Shown here one piece after another: positions 9,942 to 37,138 of a DNA stretch of 37,138 nt (positions are counted from its first letter, which is position 1; each line of letters opens with the position of its first letter). The DNA comes from Hydrurus foetidus. Its lineage: Eukaryota. The stretch is taken from positions 1 through 37,138 of the forward strand of contig UYFQ01000686.1 of NCBI GenBank assembly GCA_900617105.1. The letters are read 5' to 3'. The notes beneath the pieces were generated by a model, which was given only the letters and a program-made list of their open reading frames with translations, searched no databases and had not been told where the DNA came from. The position numbers and the translations under genes were made by a program.

Positions 9942-9953
9942 AGTAGATCTACT
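9942..9953 (-). other. Perfect 12-bp palindrome at the G1 PBS position
   Basis: AGTAGATCTACT is self-complementary and includes the terminal A of the candidate LTR; no TGG-type PBS is present. Confidence 0.7.
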
Positions 9954-10159
9954 GTGACCTTTGAGGGCTAGGAAGAAGGGAAGTCTAAAGGCTAAAAGAA
10001 GCTGATTAGTTAGGGAGAAAGCAGAAGGTACGCTAGTAACTTCTGCAAAGCAGCACAAACTAGCTAGTGACTGATAGTCGTGGCTGTGAACACGAAGGTA
10101 CTAAGGTGGAAACAGCATCTAATCGGCTGAATGGGGTAGCAGACCCTGAGGGAGCCACA
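9953..10159 (-). repeat. Candidate 5' LTR of G1 (207 bp)
   Basis: On the minus strand it reads TGTGGC...GGTCACA (TGTG/CACA inverted termini), upstream of leader and gag. The second LTR is not in the window, so the bounds are unconfirmed. Confidence 0.6.
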
Positions 10160-15207: not shown

Positions 15208-15214
15208 TAATCAT

Positions 15215-17326: not shown

Positions 17327-17329
17327 TAA

Positions 17330-17590
17330 GTGCATTCCTTGTGGGAGTGCAAAAACAAAGTACAAAATTGGAGTTTTTGTTGACTTTGTCTCGCTCTATC
17401 GTACCTTTGTGGTGACCAAAACAAAAAATAAAAATCCATTTTTTTGTTTTTCAACTTTGTCAGGTCCTTCCGAGACAAAAAAGACGTGAAAATTTGTCTG
17501 GCAAATCGTCGAGACAAAGTTGCGCCAAATATCACCAAAAAAAAAACCCAAGTTTTGTATTTTGTGCTTCGTCTCCCACAAGGAATGGCC
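17330..17590. mobile_element. Tourist-like (PIF/Harbinger) MITE, 261 bp
   Basis: TIRs GTGCATTCCTTGTGGGAG / CTCCCACAAGGAATGGCC (16/18); TAA on both sides (17327-29, 17591-93). Confidence 0.85.
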
Positions 17591-18373
17591 TAATAGGTTA
17601 GGGTCTGACCGATCCGACGTCCCCGCTTTTTCGACGTTTTAGTATGGGAGACCAAAATCAGTCAGTTATTTTCCGATTTTGTGAACATTCCTCGCTAACC
17701 ATAAAAGGGTTTTCAATTCATTGCATCGTCCGACTCTCAACGAGATACATCCAAAACAATACTAAAAACTGAAAACTAAAATGCGGTTTTTATTTCGGGT
17801 CCCTCCAAATGTCCAGATCATGCTATAGTTAACGAAAAAGAGCGATTTTAAAGGAGCCACTAAATTGACAGAAAGTGATTTTAATTATTGTACAGTGGGA
17901 GTCACCTATAAACGGAATAGTGTGAGTGGTGGAACCCAGAACTCCTAAAACTTTCGTATATGTTTTTTTAGTGCTTTTATCGCTCTGTTATCGTGTAAAG
18001 CAAGGTCATTTGACATTTCAACAGAGAGTTTTTTTTAAAATTCAATTCCAATGAGAAGTTGTAGTCGATTCAATTTGAGTGGGGACCAGAAAAATGGGAT
18101 TAGTATGGTGAGAAATCATGTAAGTACGTAAACGTTCTATGACATCATGTTATAATCGTCTTTAATAAGCTCAATAGCTTCGATGAATTCAGTAAACGTT
18201 TATTGTGTAATTCTCAGCACTATGCGGAATGTTTAGAACGTTCCAAGGTCCAAATTATTGAATTTTGGGGTCGAAGGTACCCGCCCTCCGAGGTGCAAAA
18301 GTAAAGTGTTCTATCTCACACACTGGTCTATTGTACACCTATATTTAAATAGCCATTTTAAATATTTATTGAC

Positions 18374-19113
18374 ATGCCGCGAAAGAAAAAGGCATTCCGC
18401 CAATTGGTATCTGCAAGAGTGAACGCGACAGCTGCAAAAATCGCAAGAAAGAACACTGATCATGCGCCTGATGTTGAATTTCTCGACAATATTTCATCGG
18501 ATGCTGCTAGTATCGTTGATGACAGAAACGAAGATGAGGAGATAGATTCATCCTTCTTCATTGATGGTATTCACTGGAGAATATTGCCAGATGAACCATG
18601 TGACTCTCAGCATAATGATGATGAAGACAGGATGAATAACGATCTCCAGGACGATCAAGTTGCTCTCAGATTGGAGTGGCGTGCCGTTGGTGATAATTTC
18701 GGATATCATGGGACAACTAGCTCCGTACGTGATCCTCATCCCAAGCAGTTGATGGAATCTATAACACAATTCAAGAGCTCTGTCGTTATCTACGACGGTC
18801 TAAAAAACTCTTCCTTCAGCGACAGATGAAGCTGTAGTGAAATCTCGAAGAGGTGCGCATATTGAAATTGACGCTTGGAGCGACAATGTTATAGCGATAT
18901 GCTATGTACAAAGCAAGACTCCAACGCTTGAATGCCGACCATGTTTACAGAAATACAGTTGAGTCATTCAAAGTGAAGCCAGTTTCGCTTCCAGAAGGAT
19001 GCCAAGGTAATATGACGAATGCATGCAATCCATTGCGAAAATTCCGGGCTGCTGGTCACTTTCGACAACTATTCTCATGGTCTCGCAAATCAGAGCTGGA
19101 TTCCCATGGTTGA
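18374..19113 (+). pseudogene. Probable N-terminal transposase remnant of the Tc1/mariner-like element
   Basis: ORF MPRKKK... (basic NLS-like start, acidic tract), followed by broken frames; position inside the TIRs. No catalytic domain visible. Confidence 0.4.
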
Positions 19114-19568
19114 TTTCTCGTTGCCAACACTCCTAATCGCAAATCTCTTGTCTTCAATCATCGGTGCGGACACAAGGAACACCACCCATCGAAACATATC
19201 TTCACAGGAAATCGAGATTTAAGATGCCATGCCGTCAACGATGCAATCATACTGATTACCGTCAACCGTCAACTATTGATTGCAGCCAACTATTGATCGC
19301 TGAGTCATGAGGCTTTTTCTACCGCTGAACTTTGGAGATCAGCGCCTTTTGAATTGCTTGGCGTGACGTAGCTTCTTGATGATCTAAGATTCTGTAGAGT
19401 TACACCGTTATATCTGACTCCGTAGATCCCATCTCTGCGCATTAGATTGCCGAACTGATGTAAGAAATCTGAATTGAAGTTGTCTGCATTAAACTTGTGT
19501 CCTCTTCGAATGCGTTTGGTCATGCCTTAGTCTGGGACCGCCATCTTTTGACGACAGAGAATTCTCTA

Positions 19569-19649
19569 CTTCGAACCCGCACGTGCTTCCATCCAGAAAC
19601 AGCTCTGCAGCTTGAGGCCTAAGCGCTCTACCAAGTGAGCTTCCCAGGA
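19569..19649 (-). other. tRNA-like sequence (pol III A and B boxes); SINE head or tRNA pseudogene
   Basis: Minus strand TCCTGGGAAGCTCACTTGGTAGAGCG (D-arm GCTC/GAGC, A box) ... GCGGGTTCGAAG (B box); the 3' T-stem and acceptor stem are missing. Confidence 0.6.
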
Positions 19650-20078
19650 ACTGAGATTTTCCGAGAAATCAGCCAACAGAGAGATCTAGCCTATCGTTGT
19701 AGGGCTCACAGCTCACAGCAAGACTGCTCGTGACAGTGGTATATGTACTGTACACATGTCACGTACTTACGGCTGAACGCACGTACGTCTGTACTCGGTT
19801 TTATCTAGGACAACTTTAACCGGAAAAGATGGAACTATTCCGTTTATAGGTGACTCCCACTGTAAGATAATGGCACTATATGATCTACACGCATACAAAA
19901 CAGTGAAAAAAATCTATATTTTATATTTTGCATGTATACAGCATGAAAAAGGTTCCGACGTTTTGGGGCCCTGATTTCGTTGTTTTGGGATTTTGAAACG
20001 TCGGATCGGTCAGACCCTATATTGTGGTTTCACTTTTGATTGGCAGCACTCCCCCCCCAGCGAGTTGTGAAAAACACT

Positions 20079-21257
20079 GCGCGCCATCAGGGAACTCAAC
20101 TCAGCACCCAAAATTTGACTAATTCGGGGGTCTAATTTCGTTTTTTTTCTAGAATCTGACCCAGGGACCAAGATTTTTTGCAAATAGACCCCCCTGGTCG
20201 GTAAATTTTGGGTGCCGAGTTGAGTTCGCGACCGAAATAACGGGCAGCTAAAATCTAGAAAATCCAACTTTTTCTATGGAATTACAACTACTTCCTGGGA
20301 AATGGCACTTTAACTAACATAGGTGGCACTTTATTTTTTCTGCCACTATAAAAATAGAATCAACACTTTAATACAGAAAAAAACACTTTACTCTAGAAAG
20401 ATCAGCTTTTTCTAAGAATCCACAGCTAAAATTTTGAGATTCTCACAGAAAGAATCACTCGCAACCACTATTTTTGACATCCACCAACTTTGTCATTTGA
20501 GATACCACCCAAATCAGTGCAGTACCTGATAATTCGAAGTTTTTTTTACTACAGTAGTTTCACCGCTTCCATCCCAAATTTAAAAAAATGGACGACACAG
20601 ATGCTATCGACGAAGAAATCACTGTTGTCGAAGCCGTTCGGATGGTCTCAACTGGCAGAGAAATCAGACATTTAGTACCGGTAATATTTTCAACATCTTA
20701 GATTGCACTCATTAATGCAGAATGTAACGAGTTAATTATCTGCCTCAAACAGTTGCCCAGGTCAACGAATTCGTCGAGGAGATGAGGCTCTCTCACTACA
20801 GGATGAATCACAATATCGGAGTGAGAGTTACATACCTCAAGTGCTCAGTAGTAGGGTGTCCGCACATCTGCAGATTGCTTGAGAATCTGACGCACGCTGT
20901 TCCTCCATTCGAGGTAGAGACCACTGCAGACTGCAATCACAACCATCAGGTTGAAGTCCCACGTGAGCGTGGGCTAACAGTCCCTCAAAAAGATATCATG
21001 ACGCTTTGAATAGAGCGAGGCCAGGCAGCACCAAAGAAAGTGTGATACTTTATTAAAGTGCTGATTATTCGGTAAAGTTGAGATTCTACCAAAATAGCTG
21101 CGATTCCGTAAAAATAGTTGCATAATATTAAAAATAGTTGCCACTTGTCTAATAGTGGCAATTCCATGAAAAAAGTGGTGATTCCATAAAAAAAGTGGTC
21201 CATTCCAGATTTTAGTTGCGCATTATATTTACCCGGTTGAGTTCCCTGATGGCGTGC
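20079..21257. mobile_element. Nested TIR element (about 1.18 kb) carrying a truncated WRKY/FLYWCH-like gene; superfamily uncertain
   Basis: GCGCGCCATCAGGGAACTCAAC (20079-20100) is inverted at 21236-21257 (21/22). No clean TSD (CTG/CTA at best). Confidence 0.8.
20588..21009 (+). pseudogene. Truncated transposase N-terminus with a WRKY/FLYWCH-like zinc finger; probable intron 20681..20760
   Basis: YLKCSVVGCP...HNH (C-X4-C...H-X-H). A GT..AG intron joins the ATG-20588 exon in frame to ORF 20782..21009. Confidence 0.55.
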
Positions 21258-21687
21258 TAGTAACCGAGATGTTTTTCGAGACCATAAAACCGAGATGTTT
21301 TTCGTACCGAGGGCGAAGCCCGAGGTTCGAAATACTTCGAGGTTTATGGTTGAGTGTACGAACGTTACTTTTTATTCCGATGGGTTCATAAAGACCCGTT
21401 TCGGTCCTGCGGGTCGAAAAGGAATCCTTTTCGCACCTCCGGTGCGAAAAGGATTACTTTTCGACCCGCGCGTGAAAACGGTGAAATTTGGCCGGAAGCT
21501 CATGACCGGAAAAGGGTCTTTATGAACCCTGAGGGATAAAAAGTGTTTTTCACAACTCGCTGGGGGGGATCTGCTGCCAATTAAAAGCTGCGTAGGAGCA
21601 AAGGATATTTTGAGAAACCCTAGACCCTAGATAGGGACCCTTGCCAGCATCCGATCCTAGACCCTAGATAGGGTGCCCGTCTAGGGT

Positions 21688-21952
21688 TGTGGTCGTCGGT
21701 GACCTGAAGACGAAGGACGAAGATGATGGACGAGGACGGAGGGTGAAAAACGAAGACGGAGGAGGTGGAAGAGTATTCTTATAGTTTACAGCGAGAAACA
21801 AGCAGTAGTATTTACAGTGATGTGTACTCGCGTGGAAACGAAAAGAAAAGAAAACTGTACCGGACTTTGGGTCCGTTCTAGAATCTGCAGTACAGGTATA
21901 GTATACAGTCACAGTGTATCCGTACATGCAGTACAGATGCAGTGAGGCTACA
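21688..21952 (-). repeat. 3' LTR (265 bp) of a third gypsy/chromovirus, preceded by a polypurine tract (21953..21978)
   Basis: Minus strand GGAAAAGAAAATGGAAGAAGGGGTAG|TGTAGCC...GACCACA, downstream of the chromodomain ORF. Confidence 0.8.
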
Positions 21953-22161
21953 CTACCCCTTCTTCCATTTTCTTTTCCAATGAACTCTACTAATATTTGT
22001 ATGAGAGTAGGAAAGAAAGACGAAACAAAACACATTTTGAAAAAAAAATGAGAAACTTCGAAAACGATGATGTCAGACTCTTACTGACTAAATTCCTCCA
22101 AAAAAAGAATATAAAAAAATAGGAGGTAAATTCTTCATGAATAACGTTTCGAGTGAAGAAA

Positions 22162-22482
22162 TCAACGGTGTTGTTTATTGATTAATTTTGTTAAATTATT
22201 TTGACGCAAGTAATCATGAAGTTTATCAACATCACGAAGATTGGAGTAAGGCTCCCAAGTGTTTTTGTCAGAAGGGTAATTTAACCATTTGACTAAAAAC
22301 TCAATTCTGGAGCGTTGATGAGGTCCACGGTGATCAAGGATGTCTTCTACGAGGTATTTCATATGGTCATGACGCGCGACATCAACAGGATTTGTAATCG
22401 CTAGATCATACAGAAACGGTTTCATGGCCGATACATGATATACCGCTGTTTTTTGTGTGATCAAATCGTATAGAGTGTAACG
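22162..22482 (-). pseudogene. Chromovirus integrase C-terminal fragment with chromodomain
   Basis: YTLYDLIT...VYHVSAMKPF (GPY/F-region tail), then YLVEDILDHRG...FLVKWLNY...NTWEP (chromodomain). Confidence 0.9.
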
Positions 22483-22694
22483 ACACGTGAATCAAAGTGC
22501 GTTGCCACAACTGTTTTAGATCCTGTAAATTCCTTCCCGCACAGCTTGCAGCGGTACACATTATTTCCTCCAGTAGATTTCCTAATTATCCAGCAGTATT
22601 TTTCGATTGGCCCCACAGGCTGAACAATCCCTACGTCTGTATCCGCAGGCGCTTCGTCGGCCACAGCATTGGCACTAAAGAAAGAATGCATCAC
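22483..22694 (-). pseudogene. hAT transposase N-terminal BED-type zinc finger remnant
   Basis: CW...YRCKLCGKEFTGS....ATHF; ends where the gypsy fragment begins. Confidence 0.7.
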
Positions 22695-22934
22695 AAATTT
22701 ATTAACTGCTCAACGCATTGATGTGTACTGCTCACTGCTCGCTGCTAGATGACTAACTTTTAACTTCTAACTTGTGATGGTGACCTCAGGAATCAGGGAA
22801 CCGGGATAGTCCCGGTTCCCTAGGACCACCCGGTTCCCTAGATAGGGCCCTATCTAGGGAACATCTGAAAACCTTAGATAGGGCCCTAGCCCTTTGCTCC
22901 TACGCAGATTAAAAGTGAAACCACAATATATATA

Positions 22935-23251
22935 TGTTGGGATTCCTCAACTTCCGGATGCTTTGTGGCGCGTGTGACCAGTGACCCAATGCTCGTAAAA
23001 TAGACTTGTATTGCGTAATTACTTGATAATTAAACTTGTGCACCGGCATCAATCAAGACGGCAACGAAGCTTTATATATCAAGACAATTGCACGTTTTCA
23101 TCCATGTTGAAGACAGACGAATGGGTGGCTCCATGAGCCCACATATCTAACGGTCAGCGGTACTTACCCTCAGGGCGCACACCGCTGTCCGTCAGGATCC
23201 ATGCATACACTATACAACTACAGCAGTGTCTTTTCTCCGGATACTTTAACA
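22935..23251 (-). repeat. Copia 3' LTR
   Basis: Direct repeat of 28223..28539 with 5 differences by manual comparison. Confidence 0.95.
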
Positions 23252-23382
23252 CACCCAACAGGCACGCAGTAGTTGAAGCACCCGGGCACGCATCGGATCT
23301 TCATGTCAGCAATAGAATAAATGTGAATTGATTTGCAAGCAGTAATATCTAACTAAATAATGTCGTGTGGTCTCAGGCGTCT

Positions 23383-25401
23383 TCATTTCTCTGCTTTGTC
23401 GGTAGCCCATCCTGTGAGCCCGTCTCTCTCTCTGCGGAACTGAGATCCTTGGAGCGGCTTTGTCAGCACGTTGGCGTACATGTCCTCGCTGCGCAGGTAC
23501 TGCACCCGCACTTCCCCGGTGTCCACTCGCTCTTTGACCCAGAAGTATCGGATTTGTATGTGGCGTGTGCGCTCCGCTCCCGATCTGCCGCGTTCCACTA
23601 ACGCCATGCAGGACTGGTTGTCCTGGTATATGATGACCGGCTCCATCTTGTAACCCTGTGCGATTAGAAATGTACGGATAAAAATGCTCTGATTGGTGGA
23701 ATCAGATAGGCCGACCAGCTCAGCCTCTGTACTCGACTTTGTCACAATTAGCTGCTTCGATGATCTACAGTGCACCGCTCCGATGTCCCCGATCACTACG
23801 CAGCTCCCTGTGTGGGACCGTCCGTCAGTGTGCACCCCGTATGACGCATCCACAAAAAGCCGCACTACTATACCACTGTCGCCTGGTCGCAGCACTACGC
23901 CGCTGTCCCTTGTCGCGTGGATGTATCTCACGAGTCGCTGGAGCTTGTCCACGTCATCTGCTGTGCACTTGTTCACCCGTGTGGACAGGAAAGCCACTGC
24001 GACTAGGCACTCTGGTTTGGTGCGCTTGGCCAGGTATAGGATCATGGCTACGACTTTGTGGAACCATACCCTCACTGGCTCCGCCACCGCTGCTGCATCC
24101 TCCCTAGTCTCGAACAGTCCGTCTGTGGCGGGTGACCTCGCCGTCCCCTTCACCCCTGATGTTCTGACGATCTCGTCGCAATATCCCGTAGTTGTGATCA
24201 TCGCCGTTCCTGGTATGTGCATATCTATTGCCATGCCGAGATAATTTATAAGAGGTCCATGTGACAATGTAATCGAACCGTACCTCTTGCGCAGTCCGTC
24301 GACTAGGTGGGACATGGATCCCTTGCTGTTGCTTGTTATTAACAAGTCGTCGACGTGTACTGCAACAGTGCACTGGTGCCCGTCCGGGCCCGTTCGGTTG
24401 AATACGCATCTATCACATATATTCCGTGTGTACCCCAATCCCAGCATGGTGGCGTACAGATTCTCGTACCACAGACCGGAGCTCTCGACGCACCCGTATA
24501 GTGCTTTTTTCAGGTGTACCGTCACTCCGCCTCTTGCGTCTGTGTACTTACCGTACTTCGGGTCGATGTCTATGATGAGGTCAGTCATGGTGCGATCCAG
24601 TCGCATGTGTACTGGCACCTCCAGTGACATGTCCGCGTTCAGGTACGCCCCGCTGATGTCGACTACTGCAACTCGGCGCTTCTCATGTGCTGCAACTGCC
24701 AGCAAGGTGAACACAGCGCTGGTCGACACGGTTGGAGATGATAAATCCTCGTATAAGCTCTTATCCTGTTGGTCGCCTCCTGCGACCAGTCTGGCTTTGA
24801 GCTTGTGAAAGCTCCCATCTGGATTGTTCTTCTGCTTCAAGAACATGGAGGACCTGATTGTTGTTGCTCTCTGCATCGCTGACAACTTGCCTCCCATAAC
24901 AGGCGCCCATACTCTCTTGTCTAACATCTGCTTCAGCTCTGATACGATGACACTCTTGGCCTCGTCACCTCTCGTGCGGAGTGCCTCTCTAACACTGATG
25001 TTAGCGGTGTTGCTCTTGCTCAGTTCCTCCCTGTGGCGCTTCATCACTTCTTCAACGTGGTGCGTTGGTACTACTGTGCTCGCAGCTGCTTCGCCTTCGG
25101 CCGTTACGAATGCCCCCTCGTTGGTGTGAGACGACCGAGTCGTCATCCTCTCAGTCGGTGCTGGTACCCTGCGCTGCTCTCTAAGCGGTGGGTGCAATGG
25201 TTGCACTGCTGGTTCTGTGTCAGGTACGGGTGCATCGCCGGAAATGTCGCTTGGGATTGTCGGTTCGTACAGGGGTGTTGGTGGTGGTGATGGTGTAGGC
25301 ACGTTCCGTTCGTGCACCCCGACTGTCTCGTATTCCGAGATTCTCATTTCTTCTTGAGCTACTGTCGTGTCGGCTGATACTAGCACCCCCCCTCCCCACA
25401 T
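23383..25401 (-). CDS. pol: Copia pol: RT and RNase H (separated from integrase by a frameshift near the C-run at about 25390)
   Basis: KARLVAGG, DISGAYL, LKKALYG, HVDDLL; DASYG, SSTEAELVG, QDNQS. Confidence 0.95.
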   Translation of the reverse strand: MWGGGVLVSADTTVAQEEMRISEYETVGVHERNVPTPSPPPTPLYEPTIPSDISGDAPVPDTEPAVQPLHPPLREQRRVPAPTERMTTRSSHTNEGAFVTAEGEAAASTVVPTHHVEEVMKRHREELSKSNTANISVREALRTRGDEAKSVIVSELKQMLDKRVWAPVMGGKLSAMQRATTIRSSMFLKQKNNPDGSFHKLKARLVAGGDQQDKSLYEDLSSPTVSTSAVFTLLAVAAHEKRRVAVVDISGAYLNADMSLEVPVHMRLDRTMTDLIIDIDPKYGKYTDARGGVTVHLKKALYGCVESSGLWYENLYATMLGLGYTRNICDRCVFNRTGPDGHQCTVAVHVDDLLITSNSKGSMSHLVDGLRKRYGSITLSHGPLINYLGMAIDMHIPGTAMITTTGYCDEIVRTSGVKGTARSPATDGLFETREDAAAVAEPVRVWFHKVVAMILYLAKRTKPECLVAVAFLSTRVNKCTADDVDKLQRLVRYIHATRDSGVVLRPGDSGIVVRLFVDASYGVHTDGRSHTGSCVVIGDIGAVHCRSSKQLIVTKSSTEAELVGLSDSTNQSIFIRTFLIAQGYKMEPVIIYQDNQSCMALVERGRSGAERTRHIQIRYFWVKERVDTGEVRVQYLRSEDMYANVLTKPLQGSQFRRERDGLTGWATDKAEK

Positions 25402-26992
25402 CAGGGAGGGTAGTCTCGAGGATGATGTCGGCAGAGGGTAGGTCGGTGAGGGTTGGTTGGTTGTACACCGCTACTTCGTCGGCAGGTGCATCCTGAGTGG
25501 GGGGGTTGGTATTGAAGGTTGGCAGGTTAGATTTGTCGAGGCTGTTGGCAAAGAGCAATTCATCAAACACATGTAGTTTGGTTTGGGTGATTTTCTTCCC
25601 TTCTCTAAGCGCCATCGCGTTCAAAGTCATAATGACTGACTGAGGCATCGGCAGTATCTTGAACTGGTCCCGAGTGACGATCCTGCCGGTTGCAAGCGAA
25701 AGCATCTTGAATGATCCAGTCCTGTTTTGTGTTGGTAGCATGACAATGCAATCTTCAGTACGCGATGTCATAGTATTGTCAGTGTTTGGTACTGTACAGA
25801 CTGCATAATCCCCGAATGCGGCGCGGAAGTCCAGGTTCCCATCAACCCGCCGTCCTGAGAAGAGCTCCCTTGGGGAGAGACCCCCTGGCCTCGATCCTGA
25901 CTGCTGGCAGTTGATACGTGAGACGCAGTATAGGGCTAGGTAGGTTAAACATAATTCATTCGGAGTGAATGGCAATCTACCGCAGATGTGAGCACGTGCT
26001 CTCTCCTTCACCATCTGGATACGCCGCTCAATTCTTGCAACATGACCTCCTGCTGCGCTCACGTCCACCTCAATCCCTAGGGCCATCAAATCCACCCTCA
26101 TTTTCCCGATGGCACCTTCTCCGTCAGACATGATGACATGCACTAGAAAGTTCCTAGATTTCAAGATGGATATCATCTCGCACAGTGCCGGCTTTACAAC
26201 TGCCGCTGCACGCGAGGTCTTTGCAGTGTCGAGTCGGATGAGGCTCACGGCGAGTGTCATGTCCAAAGGGGTTGAGACTGCAATGAGTATCGCTGTTGAC
26301 TCCAGGTACATGATGTCAACGCTCAGGACCTGCTGCTGTTGTGCTGGTGCAGGTGTTAGAGAGATGTCCGCTGTAGGTGAGGGTTTCTTGTGAGTCTTGC
26401 CTCGTAGGCTGGCCAAGCATTTACCCCAGATAGTGTGAGCGTTTCTGAAGTCGGCCTCCGAGACGCTGAAGTTATTCCCACCGCGTATCATCGCGATCGC
26501 CATCTCTACTGGCGGGTACCCCATACGAGCTAGCAGTTCCCTAGCAGCTGTGGCCGACGCGATCTCGCGTTTCGTGAACTTCCCCATGTTCTCACTGACC
26601 GTTGCTACCATAGCCTGTTCGGTGTATTGACGCGGTTGCTTCTGACCAGCCATACCTCTCACGTCGCACACATAGAATCGACCCGTTGAGCCTGGCAGGT
26701 TCTGCCTGCTGAAGCTGTATGCTGCTTTACTGCCTGCCGGTCGCAGGATGAAGCATCCATTCTCCTGATTGTAGCTAAGGTCAGCGCCTCTATCCGCCAT
26801 AGCTGCGAACGACAATATGTTAGCCGTAGCCCTGGGGCTATAGTAGACTGGCCCGATCTCCCCGAAGTCACCTTCTTGGTCGACTCTGACACTCTCTGCT
26901 TCTCGTTGAACTCCGTTCAAGAGGATTGACTGCTGTGATTTCCGGATATCTGTCAGGAGGCTCGAATTGCAAAATATGCTGACGGATGCCTG
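25220..26992 (-). CDS. pol: Copia pol: protease C-terminal part and integrase
   Basis: NILSF (protease), LSVDIM, SDGEG, IERRIQMVKER (DDE); in frame with gag across a single TAA. Confidence 0.9.
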   Translation of the reverse strand, partial: QASVSIFCNSSLLTDIRKSQQSILLNGVQREAESVRVDQEGDFGEIGPVYYSPRATANILSFAAMADRGADLSYNQENGCFILRPAGSKAAYSFSRQNLPGSTGRFYVCDVRGMAGQKQPRQYTEQAMVATVSENMGKFTKREIASATAARELLARMGYPPVEMAIAMIRGGNNFSVSEADFRNAHTIWGKCLASLRGKTHKKPSPTADISLTPAPAQQQQVLSVDIMYLESTAILIAVSTPLDMTLAVSLIRLDTAKTSRAAAVVKPALCEMISILKSRNFLVHVIMSDGEGAIGKMRVDLMALGIEVDVSAAGGHVARIERRIQMVKERARAHICGRLPFTPNELCLTYLALYCVSRINCQQSGSRPGGLSPRELFSGRRVDGNLDFRAAFGDYAVCTVPNTDNTMTSRTEDCIVMLPTQNRTGSFKMLSLATGRIVTRDQFKILPMPQSVIMTLNAMALREGKKITQTKLHVFDELLFANSLDKSNLPTFNTNPPTQDAPADEVAVYNQPTLTDLPSADIILETTLPDVGRGGASISRHDSSSRRNENLGIRDSRGARTERAYTITTTNTPVRTDNPKRHFRRCTRT

Positions 26993-28195
26993 TTAGTCCA
27001 GTAGTACGTGGCTTCGAGTGAAGAGGACGGTTTCGTTCGTAGTGACGAAGGCCGCCTCGACACTCTCATCGTCGTCTTCGAGTTGGTCTTCTATGGCGGT
27101 GAGCAGCGCTTGCTCGCCGACCTTTCGTTCTTCGCAATCTTTCGCGTAGTGGCCAGTCTGTCCGCATACGAAGCAGATCACTGATGATGATTTCTTCTTC
27201 GATGCAGCTGTCTTGCCTGTCGATCCTTTTCCTGGGACTTTTTCCTTTGTTCTCGGCAAAGTGTCGGTGAGGAATGCGGAATGTTGTTCGGCTCCGAGGG
27301 GGACACCCCCGCCGGCGTTCGTCCAAGATGACGCTACCCTGTATGCTCCGGCTAAGGTGGAAGGGTAACTGTTTGGTAGGTTTTGCACAGCGTTATTCCG
27401 CATAAAAGTCAACATACCGGTATACCTTTTTGGGTCTAACTTACTGAGGAAGTCGATAGCTCTTATCGGTTCTTCCACTTCAGTCATGCCGACACCCCTG
27501 TTGGCTAATACCTGGTTATCAAATCGCGTTTTGAAGTCGCCGATTACCTCACGTTCACCCTGTCTGAGGTAGTTGTACCTCAGTGTTTGTTCGTGGACGT
27601 TCACTGCTCTCATTGAGTCGTCTTCACCATAGATGTGGGTTAGATGGCTTCTGCGGATGAACTCCCATAGTTGCACACTGTCGAGTCTGAGGCGGCATGC
27701 CTCGAAGCCTGGCTCCTCTCGAACCTTGGACTTGGACCCAGTCGACATCCTCGACCACATGAGTGGAAATAGCTTTTGCTCGTCGATTTTCTGGGCCTCG
27801 ACTGCCTTACGGCGTCCCTCAAACGCGCCAGCCCGCAGCTTGTCGATGAGCGCCTCAGAGTACACGGCAGGAGCTTCTGGAGGAAGCTGTGGCCCGATCA
27901 TGACATTTTCAGGGTCTACGGATTCGTCCTCATCTTCCTCCCCGTCTTCATTTTCGATACCCGCTGTCGTGGTATCGGTATCCACCGTTTGAAAGGTGGG
28001 GTTGTAATCCTCCTCACGAGGGTACGGATGGACGTATCTCTTGTTGGTGCTGAAGAACATGCCGGTCATACCGTACAGGCCACATGCCTCGTTCTGCATG
28101 TCTTCCTTCCATTGCACCACGTTGTTTTGGCGTCCGATTTTCAGCATGCAGTGCTCTGCACCTGATTTCGGTTCTTCTTGTTTCTTCGGCGGCAT
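26993..28195 (-). CDS. gag: Copia gag with zinc knuckle; ends at an in-frame TAA inside the protease motif (LLD*QAS)
   Basis: LRQGEREVIGDF; CFVCGQTGHYAKDC. Confidence 0.92.
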   Translation of the reverse strand: MPPKKQEEPKSGAEHCMLKIGRQNNVVQWKEDMQNEACGLYGMTGMFFSTNKRYVHPYPREEDYNPTFQTVDTDTTTAGIENEDGEEDEDESVDPENVMIGPQLPPEAPAVYSEALIDKLRAGAFEGRRKAVEAQKIDEQKLFPLMWSRMSTGSKSKVREEPGFEACRLRLDSVQLWEFIRRSHLTHIYGEDDSMRAVNVHEQTLRYNYLRQGEREVIGDFKTRFDNQVLANRGVGMTEVEEPIRAIDFLSKLDPKRYTGMLTFMRNNAVQNLPNSYPSTLAGAYRVASSWTNAGGGVPLGAEQHSAFLTDTLPRTKEKVPGKGSTGKTAASKKKSSSVICFVCGQTGHYAKDCEERKVGEQALLTAIEDQLEDDDESVEAAFVTTNETVLFTRSHVLLD

Positions 28196-28212
28196 CTCTT
28201 ATGCGCTGATCT

Positions 28213-28223
28213 AGTTTAATTAT
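28213..28223 (-). other. Copia PBS position, complementary to LTR 28314..28324 (candidate self-priming site)
   Basis: + strand AGTTTAATTAT (28213-23) is the exact reverse complement of ATAATTAAACT (28314-24); no TGG PBS. Confidence 0.7.
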
Positions 28224-28539
28224 GTTGGGATTCCTCAACTTCCGGATGCTTTGTGGCGCGTGTGACCAGTGACCCAATGCTCGTAAAATAGACTTGTATT
28301 GCGTAATTACTTGATAATTAAACTTGTGCACCGGCATCAATCAAGACGGCAACGAAGCTTTATATATCAAGACAATTGCACGTTTTCATCCATGTTGAAG
28401 ACAGACGAATGGGTGGCTCCATGAGTCCACACATCTAACGGTCAGCGGTACTTACCCTCAGGGCGCACACCGCTGTCCGTCAGGATCCATGCATACACTA
28501 TACAACTACAGCAGTGTCTTTTCTCCGGATACTCCGACA
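28223..28539 (-). repeat. Copia 5' LTR with candidate TATA box (TATATAAA, 28366..28359)
   Basis: Direct repeat of 22935..23251; the gag ATG lies 28 nt downstream. Confidence 0.95.
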
Positions 28540-28677
28540 ATATATAGGTCCAATTATGCTTGATACAAAACTACTGCGCACAGTAATTATGCATGATATA
28601 AAACAACTGATCACAGCACACTGGCATCTTAACAAGTTCGACCGCATACGCTGAGACTACCACTGAGACGACCACCA

Positions 28678-30324
28678 ATGGTGAAGTTCGTTCCGGTAAC
28701 TGACGTCGAGAGGCCAAAAGCAGCCCAGAACCTGAACACGTCAGCGAATGATAAGCATAGGAGGTTCGACAATCCTCATTCTGTGGGGAAAACTGTCGAT
28801 CGAGGATGGCAGCAGGGAAATGTAGGCTGGGGTGTTCTCGGCGCCTTCGGGAATTTGGATAAGGATGATGCAGCACAGGTCATCAAGCGTGCTGAAGGAG
28901 TCAACAAAATGGTGAAAAACGAAAAAGGTCTCTGGGTTAAGGTCAAAAGTACACATACCGACGCAGTTTCTGCAACGAGCTCGAGCCGAGGTCGTGGAGG
29001 AGGTATCAGCGTCCTTGATTCCCTTGGATGTAATTCCAATTCTTCGTACGATAAACAACACTCCGAGGACGATGGGATGACAATAGAATCAAGGGGTAGA
29101 TCTGACGATAGGTTCAGAGATAAATCTGGGGAGAGATATCAAAGTAAACGTAGTGAAACGGTGTGTAACAGAAGCAAAAGTAGGAGTAGAAGCAGAAGCA
29201 ACAGCAGCAGCAACTATCGGAACAGATGCAATCGTCGGAGGAGCAGGAGCACGGAGAGGAGATCACGTCGCTCAGATCACCGAAGGAGTGATAGGCATAG
29301 ACGAGAGCGACACGACAGGTGTTCCTCCCGATCGCGATCGAAATCGTCTTCTGTATCTCGAACGCGTCACAGGAAGAGTGATGGATCTAGACGCGACAAT
29401 GACCATCGGTCGCACCTTCCCTCTGGCGGCAGGAAGCGAGACCGCTCCAGCTCTAGTCATACCGACAGAAACAGAAGACGCAGCAACGATCGGTACAATG
29501 AAAGCAATAGAGACAGCGACAGAAATCTTAAAAGCGAGAGGAGGCCTAATGAGAGCTCGAGCAGTTCCTCAGGGACTGATATCACTGAGGGGAACAAGAC
29601 CAGCAGATCGAACACCGAGAAGGACGATGAGTTGCGAGATCCACCTTCTCCTGAAACAGAAGAGGAGCACGTTTTTGAGTTCTCTGCCACTCAGCTAGCT
29701 AATCGTTTCCTCGAAGTCTTCTCAGGGCTTGGGCTGAACTTGACGAAGAGATCGAATACAGAAGATGAAGAAGAGGAGTCAGGCAACAGACGTCTCGATG
29801 CTATCGCTGATCTCCTCTCTGAAAACTCACAAGTGCTCAGCCTCAAGAGCGGCAAAGTGATGCTGAGCGGGAAGAGCTCTATCCGATCCAGCTTCACACG
29901 TACGTCACCGGAGGAGTCGAGGTGCTCCCACCGTGTCGTTCTGAACATCCCTCAAGACACGGTCAGCAGTGACACCTATTCCATCAGTGAGAACGCACCT
30001 AAAGGGAGCGTTAGTTACTGCCTCGACTTCCACGCCCCCTTCACTTCACCCGGACTGGGAGACCGAACAAAGGATACCGCCCTCCTATACCGCTGTGTGG
30101 GGTCCCTGCTGACGCACATATGGGGGGCAGTCGACCCGGACAAGTTCTCTACCGCATGGTCCGTGAAACAGTCCACATCTTCGAAGGAAGCTGTTCTGGA
30201 CACGAAATGTTGGGCTTGGGCTACTGCGATGGTCTCGAAGGAATTTCCGTCCTTTACAGACCTTGTTACTGATAGCGAAGTAGTGATATTCCACGACTAC
30301 AATACTATTGAATCCTGGGGCTGA
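28678..30324 (+). CDS. Host gene: Arg/Ser-rich protein (548 aa) with a globular C-terminal domain, possibly NTF2/SnoaL-like
   Basis: Long intact ATG-initiated ORF; central RS dipeptide region; non-repetitive C-terminus. Confidence 0.75.
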   Translation: MVKFVPVTDVERPKAAQNLNTSANDKHRRFDNPHSVGKTVDRGWQQGNVGWGVLGAFGNLDKDDAAQVIKRAEGVNKMVKNEKGLWVKVKSTHTDAVSATSSSRGRGGGISVLDSLGCNSNSSYDKQHSEDDGMTIESRGRSDDRFRDKSGERYQSKRSETVCNRSKSRSRSRSNSSSNYRNRCNRRRSRSTERRSRRSDHRRSDRHRRERHDRCSSRSRSKSSSVSRTRHRKSDGSRRDNDHRSHLPSGGRKRDRSSSSHTDRNRRRSNDRYNESNRDSDRNLKSERRPNESSSSSSGTDITEGNKTSRSNTEKDDELRDPPSPETEEEHVFEFSATQLANRFLEVFSGLGLNLTKRSNTEDEEEESGNRRLDAIADLLSENSQVLSLKSGKVMLSGKSSIRSSFTRTSPEESRCSHRVVLNIPQDTVSSDTYSISENAPKGSVSYCLDFHAPFTSPGLGDRTKDTALLYRCVGSLLTHIWGAVDPDKFSTAWSVKQSTSSKEAVLDTKCWAWATAMVSKEFPSFTDLVTDSEVVIFHDYNTIESWG

Positions 30325-31970: not shown

Positions 31971-32419
31971 ATATTGTTGAGGTCAAAACAAAACGCAAAA
32001 TCTGTGAAATTCTCTCAAAAGAAATTTTCTCTCTCAAAAGATTTTCGTCCCCAAAGCAAGGGGGTATAGAAGGAGAGGGGGCGGTTTCGAGACCCATCCC
32101 CACTCAAACAAATTCTCACCTCAGTCTCACTCAACTCTGAACTACCCGAATGCAAGAGACATCATGAATGCTGCAATAGAACTCCACTTTGGCAGCATAG
32201 GGCAAATCCAAGAACTTCAGCGCGTCCTCGTCGATCGGCCATGACGGTTCGACTCATTTTCCGCCCCTCCTGACATACAAATTTTGTCTGCGACGGCGCG
32301 TCGCTATTTGGCTCGTCCCAACCAAGGTAAGCTTCTCTCGACCAAGTTGAAAACCGAATATTGATCTTCACCTTGGCAAATTTTGAGAGTAGCTCAACTC
32401 GTGCACAACTAGATGATTG

Positions 32420-32692
32420 TGTAGCCTAGCACGTACGTTCACCGTACGCTTCGTATACGTTTGTATATATTCACGTATGTATATAATTCACGCACCCATA
32501 GTCTATTTTCATCCACATCAACTGTCCACCGGTAACGGACGCTCATCAGCATCAGCACCCTTGTAGCCTATCGTTTGTGTCTGTTGTTAGCTGCTTGCTC
32601 GCTTCTTTCACAAACTGTAACTAACCTAACAGTTTACTCCAGCATACCGTCTTTACCCGGATTCTTCGTACTCGAATCCGGCCGCGACTACA
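32420..32692 (+). repeat. Candidate 5' LTR of gypsy element G2 (273 bp)
   Basis: TGTAGCC...GACTACA termini (same style as the LTR at 21688..21952); TATA-like motifs at about 32464-32486; 100 bp upstream of the gag ATG. Confidence 0.72.
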
Positions 32693-32704
32693 ATATTAAT
32701 ATTG
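32691..32704 (+). other. Perfect palindrome at the G2 PBS position
   Basis: CAATATTAATATTG; the 12-bp core AATATTAATATT starts at the LTR terminal A. No TGG PBS. Confidence 0.72.
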
Positions 32705-32792
32705 AGAGTTGTTAGACGAACTCTCGTTACTGGAGAGCTAGATAGATTTTCAACCGCCGACATCCGACGACCATCTGGCACTGATCACCAGT

Positions 32793-34886
32793 ATGGTTTC
32801 CAGCAACCGACGAAGACTTTCCAGGGTATCGGCCGTTTCGACGGCTCCCCTGTCGATTTCACAGGAAGCGCCATCAACTGACGCTGTCGACGAAATCGTC
32901 GCCAACAGCCAGGACGCTAGCACAACGGGAGATTCCGACTCGGCGAATCCTCCCTCGCTTCCAGATCCATCTGTTGCTGCGACTGATGTCGCAGCCCATC
33001 TATCTATCGCCTCTAACCCCTTCTCGAATTTGGCCCCCGGCGTGGGAGGGGGAAACCCCTTGCAAAATTTTTTGCAGCCATCTTCCGCTCCATCTGGAGC
33101 TTTTACAGCGGATCTAGCGATATCCCAAGCGGGGGAAGTCTCTGTTGAACATCAACAACTTCCCCAGCGAGTGGATGGAGTATTTTTGGAGCCGGCGCCT
33201 TCGCCACCAGCACCATCACCATCATCATCCACGATGATAGCCGCCACCGCCGACATCACCGCCATCACCGCCATCACCGCCATCGCCGCCACCGACATCA
33301 CGCCACTACCTGTCATTGTGCGTGATGTCTTACCTGCTTTGCCTGTGCTGCCTGTGTTATCTGCCGCAGTTTTGCCTGCAAACCCGGTGCAAACCGATTC
33401 CCTGTTGCCCACTTCCGACAGCAATGTCATGAACAGTAATGTTCAGAGTGTGGCAACTTTTGCTACCGTTGGTGGTGTTACTACCGATGTTGTTGTTTCA
33501 AACCTTGCTGCACGCTATCTATTACCTCATGAAAAGGTTAGAAAGCTCAGCAAGGTTCCAACTCATCTGGAAGTTTTAAGCATCACCAACGACCTTCGCA
33601 AGAATGGTTGCCCCTATACGTTTCTTGACGTGGTACCATTAGACGTCGAGCAATCTCTTGTAACACTCCTGCAAAGGCAGTATTGCACTGAGAGAGCAAT
33701 TCGCGACGAGTGCGAAGAGTGGAAGTCATGGACTACCGAGAGATTCTGCAAAGAACTCCTCAAGGCAGTACCTGATGAGTCCATCGATACACCTTTGGGT
33801 CAGGCATCGTTCCTCGAGCAAGTCTCATCGTTCAATTTCAGATTTGATTTGAACAACATTGAGACTGACTCCTGTAACGATACTGCCCTTGGTGCATTGG
33901 TAGCAAATTTCCCCAGCACTACTGCTGAGGAACAGCTTAAGGCTGTTAAGATTCTAGAGCGTCAGTTGCCTACCCACCCCGTCAATTGGCAGCTCATCTT
34001 ACGCCGCAAGGTGAACGGTGAGACTGTTCCAATCAACGATTTGAAAGATTTTCGATTCGTTTGGTGGACGCAACTGACTACTCTCAGAAACTCAGCTAAC
34101 GAGCTTCGGGCTGCTGGTTATGAGGTTACTCCAGGCCCAGCTACGCGTTCTAAAGATAAGCCTATCTCCAAACGCGCTGCTGAGCCTGATGAGGACACCA
34201 TCAAACCACGTGCTAAGTCCGCGAAGACTGCAAAGTCTTCGAATCCCTCAACCACTCGCACCGTACAGGTCTGTGTTGGTTGTGGAAGATCTAATCACAC
34301 TATCTCTGTGTGTAGATTTACTGCATCACCCTACTTCAATTCTTCTGACAGTGCATATGCTGATAGCAATGCATTTAAGAAACTGAAAAAGGATTACCCT
34401 GATGCATTGGTTGCAAGAGGAGCGTACGTGCCTACCACCTCCTCTTCTTCCTCTTCTTCTACTGCTACCGCGTCAGCCTCGGCTGTACCGGAGGGTCCGT
34501 CTAAGCCGGTCACTAAGCAAAAGAGCTTAAAGAAGACAAGTAAGTTATCATCAACTATTAGTTTCACTGATGTTGTTATTCCTTCTTCCATATTGGGAGC
34601 TCTTACGAACCTTTCGTCAGCCGACTTTCTAACTGCTACTGTCACCTATGTGTCACAGCCCAGCCAGCCAAGAAATGAAGTCCAAGTGCTGATCGATACG
34701 GGATCGCTCGCCGGCAATTTTGTTGCCATGCGTGTAATTAAGAATTTTCATTTAGAAGAATTTATTATTTTCGACAAGACACTGACTGTTTGTTCAGCCT
34801 TAGATGGAAAATGTTATAACATTTCTAAGTCTATAAATTTGAAAATGACTTACTTTTCTGAACGTTTAAATAAAAATACTTTTTAA
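32793..34886 (+). CDS. gag: G2 gag fused to the protease N-terminal half
   Basis: CVGCGRSNHTISVC zinc knuckle; LIDTGS. The frame breaks at a T-run (34880-84) and the protease continues in the -1 frame (DVVIGR). Confidence 0.9.
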   Translation: MVSSNRRRLSRVSAVSTAPLSISQEAPSTDAVDEIVANSQDASTTGDSDSANPPSLPDPSVAATDVAAHLSIASNPFSNLAPGVGGGNPLQNFLQPSSAPSGAFTADLAISQAGEVSVEHQQLPQRVDGVFLEPAPSPPAPSPSSSTMIAATADITAITAITAIAATDITPLPVIVRDVLPALPVLPVLSAAVLPANPVQTDSLLPTSDSNVMNSNVQSVATFATVGGVTTDVVVSNLAARYLLPHEKVRKLSKVPTHLEVLSITNDLRKNGCPYTFLDVVPLDVEQSLVTLLQRQYCTERAIRDECEEWKSWTTERFCKELLKAVPDESIDTPLGQASFLEQVSSFNFRFDLNNIETDSCNDTALGALVANFPSTTAEEQLKAVKILERQLPTHPVNWQLILRRKVNGETVPINDLKDFRFVWWTQLTTLRNSANELRAAGYEVTPGPATRSKDKPISKRAAEPDEDTIKPRAKSAKTAKSSNPSTTRTVQVCVGCGRSNHTISVCRFTASPYFNSSDSAYADSNAFKKLKKDYPDALVARGAYVPTTSSSSSSSTATASASAVPEGPSKPVTKQKSLKKTSKLSSTISFTDVVIPSSILGALTNLSSADFLTATVTYVSQPSQPRNEVQVLIDTGSLAGNFVAMRVIKNFHLEEFIIFDKTLTVCSALDGKCYNISKSINLKMTYFSERLNKNTF

Positions 34887-35349
34887 ATTTCAAAGCAATT
34901 ATTTTAAACAAGTCTTCAGTCGATGTTGTGATCGGACGAGTGACAATTCGGGAATCACAAATATTCCTCGAGTTGCCTAGTCAATTAGCATCGACTAATA
35001 TAGTGCACAGGGCAGCGACCTCAGTAACACCCCAAAGGGTTATTGTATCAGGTCTACTAGCTTCTCTCGTCATTCAATCCGAGAATACATCTCAACTGGC
35101 TATGCCAGATGATGATGAAATCGGTGAACATGAGGCTAGTACCTTTTCACCTTGGTTACCGGATACCAATCCGGAACCGGTTGACCCAGTATCCCTGATT
35201 AACATATCGGGTACTCCTGAACTTCAGGAGTTGATTAGACTACTCTGTATTGAATACAGAGATATCTTTTCAAATACACTTTCATCTCAGCCTGCTTCTA
35301 TTCCTCCTTTTGATCTGGTTGTTCAGGACCCTAAGTGGCGTGTCTCTAA
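34880..35349 (+). pseudogene. G2 protease C-terminus and linker, bounded by two homopolymer frameshifts
   Basis: DVVIGR...LCIEYRDIF...PASIPPFDL aligns with G1 LCTEFIDIF...PARIPPFDI. Confidence 0.8.
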
Positions 35350-37138
35350 AATAGACAACCACCTAGACCTCAATCAGCAGCCAATCAGAAGGAGATTACT
35401 AGACAATTAAATATCCTCATTGAGCAGGGTATTATTGAGAAATCCACGGCGGCTTATTATAGCCAAGGATTTTTAGTAACTAAGGCTGACGGATCTAAAA
35501 GATTCGTTATAGATTACCGTAACTTGAACGAATGTACGGAACATGCCTCTTGGCCCGTACCGAACATAACGGAAATGTTACAGAGAATCGGTTCTCAGAA
35601 ACCGACGATCTTTGGCACGGTGGATTTTGCTCAAGCATACCATCAAGCCGCATTAACACTCGCTACTAAAAAATATACTTCGTTTATATTATATAGTGGT
35701 GTCTATCAGTTTACTAGACTACCTTTTGGTCTAAAGCAAGCACCTTCTTATTTTCAAGAGATGATTGCTACTGAAGTGTTAAATACGTTACTTTATAGAA
35801 TTTTAGAAATTTATATCGATGACGTTAACATTTTTGGAAACAGTCCTGACAACTTTGTTGCACGACTGCGAGAATTCTTTTCTCGCGTTCGTCTCCATAA
35901 AATGATCCTTAAACCATCCAAATGTTATCTTGGCTATGCCGATTTAAAATTTGTTGGTAAGGTTATATCACAAGAGGGACTTAGAATGTCCCAGAGTAAA
36001 ATCCAATTAGTTTTGGATTTTCCTTGTCCTACTGTATCCAAACAACTTAAAAGTTTTCTTGGATTGGTAAACTATTTCCGTGATTTCATCAGAAATCAGT
36101 CTACGATAGTAAGACCGTTACATGCGTTACTTACAAATTATCAAAGAACAAAACGGATAGTATGGACACCAGAAGCAACTTCTGCTTTTAATGAAATAAA
36201 GGAACAAGTATCGAAATGTACTACCATTCATTTCATTAGTGATACTGCACCAATCACGTTGCACACTGATGCATCTGATTATGGTATCGGTGGTTACCTC
36301 TTCCAGACTATTGATGGAAAGGACTATCCGGTTGCATTTGTAAGCAAATCTCTTTCTGGGTCTCAACTTCGTTGGTCCACTATTCAAAAGGAAGCTTATG
36401 CAATTTACTATTCTTGTATTTTTCTACAATCACTTTTACGTGATAGATTATTTACAATTCGAACGGATCATAGAAATCTGTTATACATATATAACAATTC
36501 TAATCCAATGATTGTTCGGTGGTATGTAGCACTCTCAGAGTATACATATAAAATTGAATTTATTAAAGGTGTTGATAATGATATCGCCGACTCTATGTCT
36601 CGACTATGTCGTAACAATATGATCGACTCACCTAAGGAATACTCTGCAGATATGATTCTTGCAGCAGCTATTATTCCGAAAATTCAACTCACCGATATGC
36701 AATACAATGCTATATCATCAGTTCACAATTCTATGGTTGGTCATTTTGGACTAGCCAGAACTATGAAACGATTGAAAGCAAATCAACATAAGTGGGAATT
36801 CATGGAAAATCATGTTAGATATTTCATTGACTTTTGCCCACAATGTCAAAAGATGAGTATGATTAAAATACCTATTCATGCTCATCCTTTTACGACTTCG
36901 TCGTATTACCCTATGGAATGTTTAAACATCGACTTTGTCGGTCCATTTCCTGACGGAGGACATATCCTCGTTATCATTGATACATTCACTCGTTGGACTG
37001 AATTGTATCATACTACTGATTCAACTGCACTATCCGCCGCCCAATGTCTAATACAACATTTTGGTCGTTTCGGAGCACCTCATCAGTTAAGATCAGATAA
37101 CGGTCCCCACTTTATTGCTGACGTAATGCGTGAGTTTA
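35350..37138 (+). CDS. pol: G2 pol: RT, RNase H and integrase (open to the window end; absent from the ORF track)
   Basis: Manual translation, no stops: RFVIDYRNLN, YIDD, TDASDYG, HNSMVGH...CPQC (HHCC), IDFVGP, RSDNG. Confidence 0.95.

What the first reader, a model, noticed from the sequence alone, without database searches (positions are those of the whole stretch)
32657..32725. Gypsy G2: palindromic PBS framed by two hairpins, an independent second instance
Seen: the LTR ends GACTACA (32692) and AATATTAATATT (32692-32703, extendable to 14 bp) follows in the same register as in G1 despite different sequence, which looks like conserved structure with compensatory change. It is flanked by hairpins CCGGATTC/GAATCCGG (32657-64 / 32674-81) and GAGAGTT/AACTCTC (32704-10 / 32719-25), which would leave it exposed. 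Inference: a combined dimerisation and priming signal. Caveat: AT-only palindromes arise more easily by chance.
Basis: partly seen in the sequence, partly recalled or inferred. Interest (0 to 1): 0.82.

Follow-up and report, generated by a model that had tools for sequence, protein, structure and literature searches.

The report
Palindrome replaces retrotransposon tRNA primer site
A jumping gene in a likely algal genome has a 12-letter self-complementary sequence exactly where such elements normally bind a tRNA to start copying themselves, and dozens of relatives keep it self-complementary while changing its letters, which suggests that two RNA copies pair there and likely prime copying without a tRNA; the hairpins beside it are not conserved.

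Summary
The palindrome is real and lineage-wide; the hairpin frame is not. G2 is a multicopy Ty3/gypsy element of a chromodomain-bearing family. Another copy confirms that its LTR ends at 32692, and AATATTAATATT starts on that last A. In 26 of 31 related elements with a readable LTR-to-gag path, a perfect palindrome of at least 10 bp starts on the A of a CA (shuffles 1.9, maximum 6). Among 47 palindrome-bearing elements there are 26 different palindromes, no TGG primer site and no excess of Tf1-type LTR complement. The central bases stay complementary too, which a fold-back hairpin does not need, so the pairing is most likely between two molecules. Five distant relatives have ordinary TGG sites. 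Both flanking stems occur in only 1 of 47 (G2 itself). G1 and G2 share a clade, so they are not independent origins. Likely mechanism: tRNA-free priming by a partner RNA cut at the palindrome (untested). A palindrome in the same register is in print for fungal GalEa Copia elements. This scan noted it five times before on other DNA.

The parts
32415..32419 (+). candidate 5-bp target site duplication GATTG (unverified)
   Evidence: flank before the LTR; the 3' LTR of this copy lies beyond the window
32420..32692 (+). G2 5' LTR, 273 bp, TGTAG...CTACA
   Evidence: start: purine-rich loose end before 32419/32420 and depth step; end: L155 diverges after 32692, loose end behind 32692
32657..32681 (+). 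U5 hairpin, 8-bp stem; specific to G2, not conserved in the clade
32692..32703 (+). perfect 12-bp palindrome AATATTAATATT from the last LTR base, in place of a tRNA primer-binding site (14 bp with 32691 and 32704)
32704..32725 (+). 7-bp inverted repeat in the leader; not conserved, absent from the printed minimum-energy folds
32793..34886 (+). gag-protease frame (first in-frame ATG 32793; CX2CX4HX4C knuckle at 34272; DTG protease motif near 34689)
   Evidence: no Pfam hit
34874..35410 (+). protease-RT linker in another frame; pol of this copy is broken by two frame changes
   Evidence: other copies differ by one-letter indels there
35350..37138 (+). RT, RNase H, integrase zinc finger and core, cut by the window end
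   Evidence: Pfam RVT_1, RT_RNaseH, Integrase_H2C2, rve; 98%-identical relative P0006 ends in a chromodomain
9953..10159 (-). G1 5' LTR, 207 bp (start verified, end inferred)
   Evidence: loose ends and depth step at 10159; terminal inverted repeat
9942..9953 (-). G1 palindrome AGTAGATCTACT in the same register
   Evidence: contigs of two runs match up to 9942 and differ after it

Best explanation
G2 belongs to a clade of chromodomain-type Ty3/gypsy retrotransposons in which a 10-16 nt perfect palindrome, starting on the last base of the 5' LTR, stands in place of the tRNA primer-binding site; two copackaged element RNAs likely pair antiparallel there, and one would be cut at the 3' edge of the duplex to give the 3'-OH that primes minus-strand DNA on the other. 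Shown: position, register, absence of TGG and of a Tf1-type LTR complement, paired sequence change including the centre. Inferred: that the duplex is RNA:RNA between two molecules. Untested: the cut (by analogy with Tf1, probably the element's RNase H) and the priming. In such a duplex the partner's 3' side points into U5, so a cut after the terminal U, which faces the LTR's last A, puts a primer end at the LTR border. The same self-complementarity would let plus-strand strong-stop DNA pair with minus-strand DNA in the second strand transfer. The flanking hairpins are incidental.
For: (1) LTR end fixed by a second copy running into flank, exactly at the A where the palindrome starts, in 6 of 6 families where such a copy was on hand: G2, L011, L012, L039/L042, L113 and L014. 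(2) 26 of 31 elements with an LTR-to-gag path have a palindrome of at least 10 bp on the A of a CA; shuffles 1.9 +/- 1.3, maximum 6 of 200; for at least 12 bp, 23 against 0.49. (3) 26 different palindromes and 12 different central tetramers among 47 elements; 32 paired changes on the tree among 33 twelve-mers, 22 of them at the two central pairs, none at the terminal A-T. Close relatives differ: L039/L042, 98% identical in RT/RNase H, have AATATTAATATT and AATATATATATT. (4) When only the outer four pairs are required, 20 sites have a complementary centre (null 0.38) and 8 do not (null 6.4 +/- 2.5). (5) TGG within 6 nt of the LTR in 0 of 47; longest LTR complement 5.1 nt against 4.9 shuffled, 4 nt for G2. 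(6) Five relatives at 26-32% identity have TGG sites. (7) All 7 ten-mers contain G-C pairs and all 7 of the 14-16-mers are A+T only, as if duplex stability were held in a range. (8) Two copies of 32648-32737 co-fold through the palindrome, -69.4 against -57.2 kcal/mol.
Against: No experiment and no RNA or cDNA ends: all four runs laid are contigs. Sequence cannot tell an RNA duplex from a DNA-stage duplex, nor priming from packaging. The G2 duplex is weak (-6.8 kcal/mol for 12 bp). 5 of 31 elements miss the strict test. L002 and L060 have perfect 12-mers after a TA end; L046, L053 and L056 (one lineage) have a 10-mer from +1 with an A-A mismatch at the terminal pair. No host tRNA set was available, so a bipartite or internal tRNA site was not tested directly. 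In MMTV, palindromes within the primer site proved dispensable for dimerisation (PMC8096270, passages). The co-folding result follows from the palindrome and is not independent.
Confidence: 0.55

Rival explanations
1. The palindrome dimerises or packages the RNA like a retroviral dimer-initiation site, and a cellular RNA (a tRNA fragment, or a tRNA bound at a split site as in Ty3) primes nearby.
For: Palindromes mediate dimer contacts in Ty3 initiation complexes, and Ty1 and Ty3 use bipartite primer sites (PMC5371799, passages). The covariation data fit any pairing between two molecules.
Against: The palindrome fills the primer position from the last LTR base on, with the terminal A-T pair unchanged among 33 twelve-mers. 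A dimer signal needs no such register, and 26 different sequences there cannot all match one tRNA.
Confidence: 0.17
2. The palindrome acts at the DNA stage (plus-strand transfer or pairing of two strong-stop DNAs), and minus-strand synthesis starts by an unknown route such as a protein primer or a nick.
For: The primer-site copy is what pairs in the second strand transfer (established knowledge). Flanking RNA structure is not conserved, unlike the structured RNA reported for Tf1 (titles seen in reference lists).
Against: Plus and minus copies of any sequence are complementary, so transfer alone does not require symmetry. A second unknown is needed.
Confidence: 0.15
3. One RNA is cut after the palindrome and its new 3' end folds back as a small hairpin to prime in cis.
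For: The minimum-energy fold of G2 puts the palindrome in a 5-bp hairpin inside a U5-leader stem.
Against: A hairpin leaves the central four bases unpaired, yet they stay complementary through at least 22 changes, and there is no excess of sites with a non-complementary centre. U5-leader pairing is weak across the clade (mean z -0.38; 8 of 47 below -1.64).
Confidence: 0.06
4. The palindrome is a DNA-level dyad (protein site or cruciform) used for transcription or integration, unrelated to priming.
For: A loose consensus A-(A/G)-T-A at the outer positions is kept.
Against: It is absent after 3' LTR copies (L155, L040, L117, L059, and the second LTRs of L011 and L014). The centre changes freely but stays perfectly paired, and the element would still lack a primer site.
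Confidence: 0.05
5. Chance A+T-rich palindrome, or ordinary Tf1-type self-priming.
For: 22 palindromes of at least 12 bp lie in the window. L016 has a 10-nt A+T-only LTR complement, and L060 and L065 have 9 nt.
Against: 26 of 31 against 1.9 in dinucleotide shuffles; G+C-containing versions are common; G2 and G1 have only 4-nt LTR complements.
Confidence: 0.02

Closest known systems
Conserved Hairpin Site of fungal GalEa Ty1/copia elements (Donnart et al. 2017, PMC5445492; read: abstract and passages; supplements not read)
   Same: No tRNA primer site; a palindrome that includes the final A of the 5' LTR (10 bp, variants CTGATCAG/CTAATTAG at the core); proposed to replace the primer site, with no fitting model given.
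   Different: Copia, not Gypsy. GalEa has a second inverse copy (CHSeq2) 12-41 nt downstream that forms a hairpin; none here (0 of 47 within one mismatch). Here the palindrome is 10-16 bp with 26 variants.
Tf1/Tj1/Tcn1/Sushi self-priming chromoviruses (PMC4600332 and PMC6317226, passages; Levin 1995 and 1996 not held, titles only)
   Same: Ty3/gypsy with chromodomain; no tRNA; primer made from the element's own RNA by a cut.
   Different: Tf1 uses the 5' end of the same transcript, complementary to a non-palindromic site. No such LTR complement here, and pairing is most likely between two molecules.
Dictyostelid Skipper chromoviruses (Spaller et al. 2016, PMC5006619, passages)
   Same: Protist chromodomain Gypsy elements without TGG and without LTR complement; the authors suggest a novel kind of self-priming.
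   Different: Skipper has a polypyrimidine stretch at that place; the word palindrome does not occur in that paper. Kinship to this clade was not tested.
Retroviral dimer-initiation sites and primer-site palindromes (MMTV, HIV-2; PMC8096270, passages)
   Same: A palindrome near or in the primer site can link two RNAs.
   Different: Those sites still bind a tRNA, and the MMTV primer-site palindromes are not needed for dimerisation.

Membership tests
Ty3/gypsy LTR retrotransposon | gag, protease, RT, RNase H, integrase in that order | tested here: met
   best solved-structure match Ty3 Gag-Pol, E 9e-66
Ty3/gypsy LTR retrotransposon | TG...CA LTR preceded by a polypurine tract at the 3' copy | tested here: met
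   family level; this copy's own 3' LTR is outside the window
Ty3/gypsy LTR retrotransposon | target site duplication of this copy | not testable with these tools
   no genome held
Chromovirus | chromodomain at the integrase C-terminus | tested here: met
   in the 98%-identical relative P0006, E 4.8e-10; the window ends before it
Chromovirus | RT-RH-IN tree placement with named chromoviruses | not tested
   no named reference sequences were on hand; the tree holds unnamed loci only
tRNA-primed elements | TGG 0-5 nt after the 5' LTR, complementary to a tRNA 3' end | tested here: not met
   0 of 47; met in 5 distant loci
tRNA-primed elements | complement to an internal or half tRNA, or bipartite site | not testable with these tools
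   no host tRNA set; no tRNA gene in the window; 26 different sequences argue against one tRNA
Tf1/Sushi/Tcn1 self-priming group | at least 10 nt complement of the post-LTR sequence within the 5' LTR | tested here: not met
   G2 4 nt, G1 4 nt; 1 of 47 reaches 10 nt (A+T only); mean 5.1 against 4.9 shuffled
Tf1/Sushi/Tcn1 self-priming group | primer released from element RNA by RT RNase H | not testable with these tools
   needs biochemistry; feature known here from paper titles in reference lists
Fungal GalEa Conserved Hairpin Site | palindrome including the final A of the 5' LTR | tested here: met
Fungal GalEa Conserved Hairpin Site | downstream inverse copy CHSeq2 | tested here: not met
   0 of 47 within one mismatch in 60 nt
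Fungal GalEa Conserved Hairpin Site | Ty1/copia superfamily | tested here: not met
   RVT_1 with integrase after RNase H

The most novel reading that the evidence does not exclude
A third way to start LTR reverse transcription, besides tRNA priming and Tf1 cis self-priming: one of two copackaged RNAs is sacrificed as primer for the other through a palindrome, so dimerisation and priming are one step. It defines a large aquatic chromodomain Gypsy clade and, with fungal GalEa and the scan's unchecked notes on microsporidian and other protist elements, may have arisen several times. Because the progeny site would be copied half from template and half from primer, mismatch repair could turn one mutation into a matched pair, which would explain how fast the palindrome changes without breaking.
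Probability: 0.5. Interest if true: 0.87.

Novelty: new variant of a known kind. Interest (0 to 1): 0.72.

Why it matters
How LTR elements without a tRNA site start reverse transcription is open for GalEa (PMC5445492) and Skipper (PMC5006619). This clade gives a natural mutagenesis series of 26 palindromes in one register that argues against chance, a Tf1-type complement and a fold-back hairpin, and names the exact base where a cut and a primer end should be found. If priming by the partner RNA holds, these elements need no host tRNA, would escape control by tRNA fragments, and are missed by annotation tools that require a tRNA site.

Tried and rejected
No whole genome is held, so this copy's 3' LTR and target duplication were not found. 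Single-protein scans of viral and metagenome contigs found nothing; the alignment A1 did. Hairpin framing: rejected as a clade feature, although flanks are slightly more structured than shuffles (mean z -0.67 upstream, -0.93 downstream; 7 and 9 of 47 below -2). U5-leader stem: weak. Picking the LTR end blind by best inverted-repeat score was unreliable: it often chose another site. GalEa CHSeq2 and Tf1 complement: absent. Rfam: only a chance-level match, E 0.53. Variation inside the palindrome among G1 and G2 copies: none among the rows shown, but the tables were cut (306 and 42 rows hidden), so this is no evidence. RNA-run contigs cover the element but cannot show transcription, start or strand. 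Cluster look-up gave no organism names. Helenus/Ajax (PMC10886601), Candida Tca (PMC4139406) and bivalve TRIM (PMC6934838) papers, passages read: no palindrome at the LTR border as a primer model. Earlier-finding look-ups by sequence and by place returned nothing. No structure prediction was run; it would not bear on the claim.

Full report
Observation. Every stated motif is present. The element G2 runs from 32420 to beyond the window: LTR, a 100-nt leader to the first in-frame ATG at 32793, gag with a CX2CX4HX4C knuckle and a protease motif, then RT, RNase H and integrase. The pol of this copy is broken by two frame changes. A 98%-identical protein ends in a chromodomain. No genome is held, so I fixed the LTR from other copies. 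Contigs of four public runs show a depth step and a purine-rich loose end at 32419/32420 and a foreign loose end right behind 32692. Locus L155 matches the LTR to its last base and then enters unrelated DNA. The LTR is 32420-32692 and the palindrome starts on its last A. Summed contig depth is more than twenty times higher inside the element than on the flank in run X1, which points to many copies, though the tool warns it is no copy number. The host is likely a chrysophyte-type protist: of the 120 listed relatives of the neighbouring RPB3 gene, the only one with a eukaryote's name is an Ochromonadaceae protein at 55%; one is labelled as an archaeal MAG. This is a weak inference.

G1. Its palindrome AGTAGATCTACT lies at 9953-9942 on the minus strand. 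The LTR start at 10159 is verified by loose ends; the end at 9953 rests on the terminal inverted repeat. Contigs of two runs match up to 9942 and differ after it. G1 and G2 differ at three of six pairs, each on both sides. They are 53% identical over 403 residues and lie in one clade (21 rows, SH-aLRT 99), so they are two states of one inherited trait, not two origins.

Relatives. Set A holds the 31 loci of at least 36% identity in which the contig can be read from the LTR start to gag: 15 circular, 10 tandem with a gag match, 6 with a 5' LTR copy. The criteria do not use the palindrome, but I fixed the set after seeing many of the palindromes and set the LTR start of L012, L023 and L131 by eye. 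In 26 of 31 a perfect palindrome of at least 10 bp starts on the A of a CA within 700 nt; 200 dinucleotide shuffles give 1.9 +/- 1.3, at most 6. For at least 12 bp it is 23 against 0.49, and other dinucleotide anchors give 0-8. At 90% RT identity the 31 are 28 lineages, 25 of them positive (identities). The misses: L002 and L060 have perfect 12-mers after a TA end; L046, L053 and L056 have a 10-mer from +1 with a terminal A-A mismatch. In 28 further loci, where the LTR may be followed by flank, 21 score, a few of them at chance-looking sites. L018 and L067, left out because no polypurine tract was called, also show it. The remaining loci are too short or lack the region. Where a second copy fixes the LTR end without reference to the palindrome, it falls on the palindrome's first A in 6 of 6 families, and three circular contigs break at that base or one before it. 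After 3' LTR copies there is no palindrome.

Covariation. The 47 palindrome-bearing elements taken on (G1, G2, 45 loci; chosen for having it; L043 and L054 are the least sure) hold 26 different palindromes: 33 of 12 bp, 7 of 10, 4 of 14 and 3 of 16. On a quick maximum-likelihood tree of 68 rows, the 33 twelve-mers need 0, 4, 2, 4, 10 and 12 changes at pairs 1 to 6; these are two-sided by construction. The test that does not presuppose a perfect centre is: requiring only the outer four pairs gives 20 sites with a complementary centre (null 0.38) and 8 without (null 6.4). A fold-back hairpin cannot pair its central four bases, so the partner is most likely a second molecule. Extension by one base or more into the LTR occurs in 14 of 47, about what chance gives, so the left edge is the terminal A. 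A clade of 62 rows (SH-aLRT 100) and its sister L139 carry the trait wherever the site could be read, apart from the one-mismatch lineage. Five loci at 26-32% identity have TGG sites (L133, L136, L145, L146 by both LTRs; L143 by eye). The tree warns of long branches among these five, and the root is assumed.

What fails. Both flanking stems of at least 7 bp occur in 1 of 47, G2 itself; G1 has neither. The palindrome is no less paired than with shuffled flanks (0.54 against 0.53). In both printed folds of G2 the downstream hairpin gives way to a U5-leader stem with the palindrome folded on itself, and that stem is not a clade feature either. There is no TGG, no excess of Tf1-type complement in the LTR and no GalEa-type second copy.

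Mechanism. Established knowledge: minus-strand synthesis starts at the primer site next to U5, and Tf1-type elements cut their own RNA to make the primer (PMC4600332, passages; the RNase H step is from a title in its reference list). Here the primer position is filled by a sequence whose only constant is that it pairs with another copy of itself. In that antiparallel duplex the partner's 3' side points into U5, and a cut at the duplex edge gives a primer at the LTR border. I put this at 0.55. Pairing for packaging with another primer (0.17) and a DNA-stage role (0.15) are not excluded by sequence. A cis hairpin (0.06), a DNA dyad (0.05) and chance or Tf1 (0.02) are unlikely.

Known systems and novelty. 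Donnart et al. 2017 (PMC5445492; abstract and passages) describe a 10-bp palindrome that includes the last A of the LTR in fungal GalEa Copia elements and say no model fits. That is the same register, in another superfamily and with a second arm that is missing here. Skipper elements lack both TGG and an LTR complement but have a pyrimidine stretch (PMC5006619, passages). Nine full-text searches (listings seen, passages read in nine papers) showed no report of a palindromic primer site in Gypsy elements or of priming by the partner RNA. The library lacks most subscription journals, the Levin papers were not held, and no supplements were read; Additional files 4 and 6 of Donnart et al. and 1 and 5 of PMC6317226 may bear on how wide the trait is in print. 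The scan's index holds five earlier unchecked notes of the same kind on other genomes; I did not test them and do not count them as support. Verdict: a new variant of tRNA-independent priming signals, strongly supported as a conserved pairing site between two molecules, with the priming step inferred. Interest 0.72.

Noticed in passing
window 22935-28538: Ty1/copia element on the minus strand (RVT_2, zf-CCHC) with an ATATA target duplication. Its two LTRs start differently (TGTCGG and TGTTAA), no TGG follows the 5' LTR (TAATTAAAC...) and no clear purine tract precedes the 3' LTR.
   Followed up: partly
window 1-3870: Eight near-identical tandem copies of a 478-bp unit coding for G1's RNase H domain; an assembly artefact or a very young tandem amplification.
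   Followed up: partly
window 9231-9770: Three 178-bp tandem repeats in the long 5' leader of G1.
   Followed up: no
window 22833-22862: Perfect 30-bp palindrome just left of the Copia insertion, near ends of scattered inverted repeats; probably part of a DNA transposon.
   Followed up: no
window 10292-11014 (-) and 13459-22930: MULE transposase fragment and several pairs of long inverted repeats that look like nested MITE or DNA-transposon ends.
   Followed up: no
window 28633-30324 (+): 563-residue open frame without a Pfam match, low in complexity, right of the Copia LTR.
   Followed up: no
L046, L053, L056, L060, L065, L070, L071: One subclade has non-canonical 5' LTR ends before the palindrome (CCTCA, CCATA, CCTTA); in three members the terminal pair is broken but CCTT/AAGG extends the duplex.
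   Followed up: partly
L082-L154: 73 loci in prokaryote genome bins carry Ty3/gypsy-like pol, up to 73% identical to G2; most likely eukaryotic contamination of those bins.
   Followed up: no
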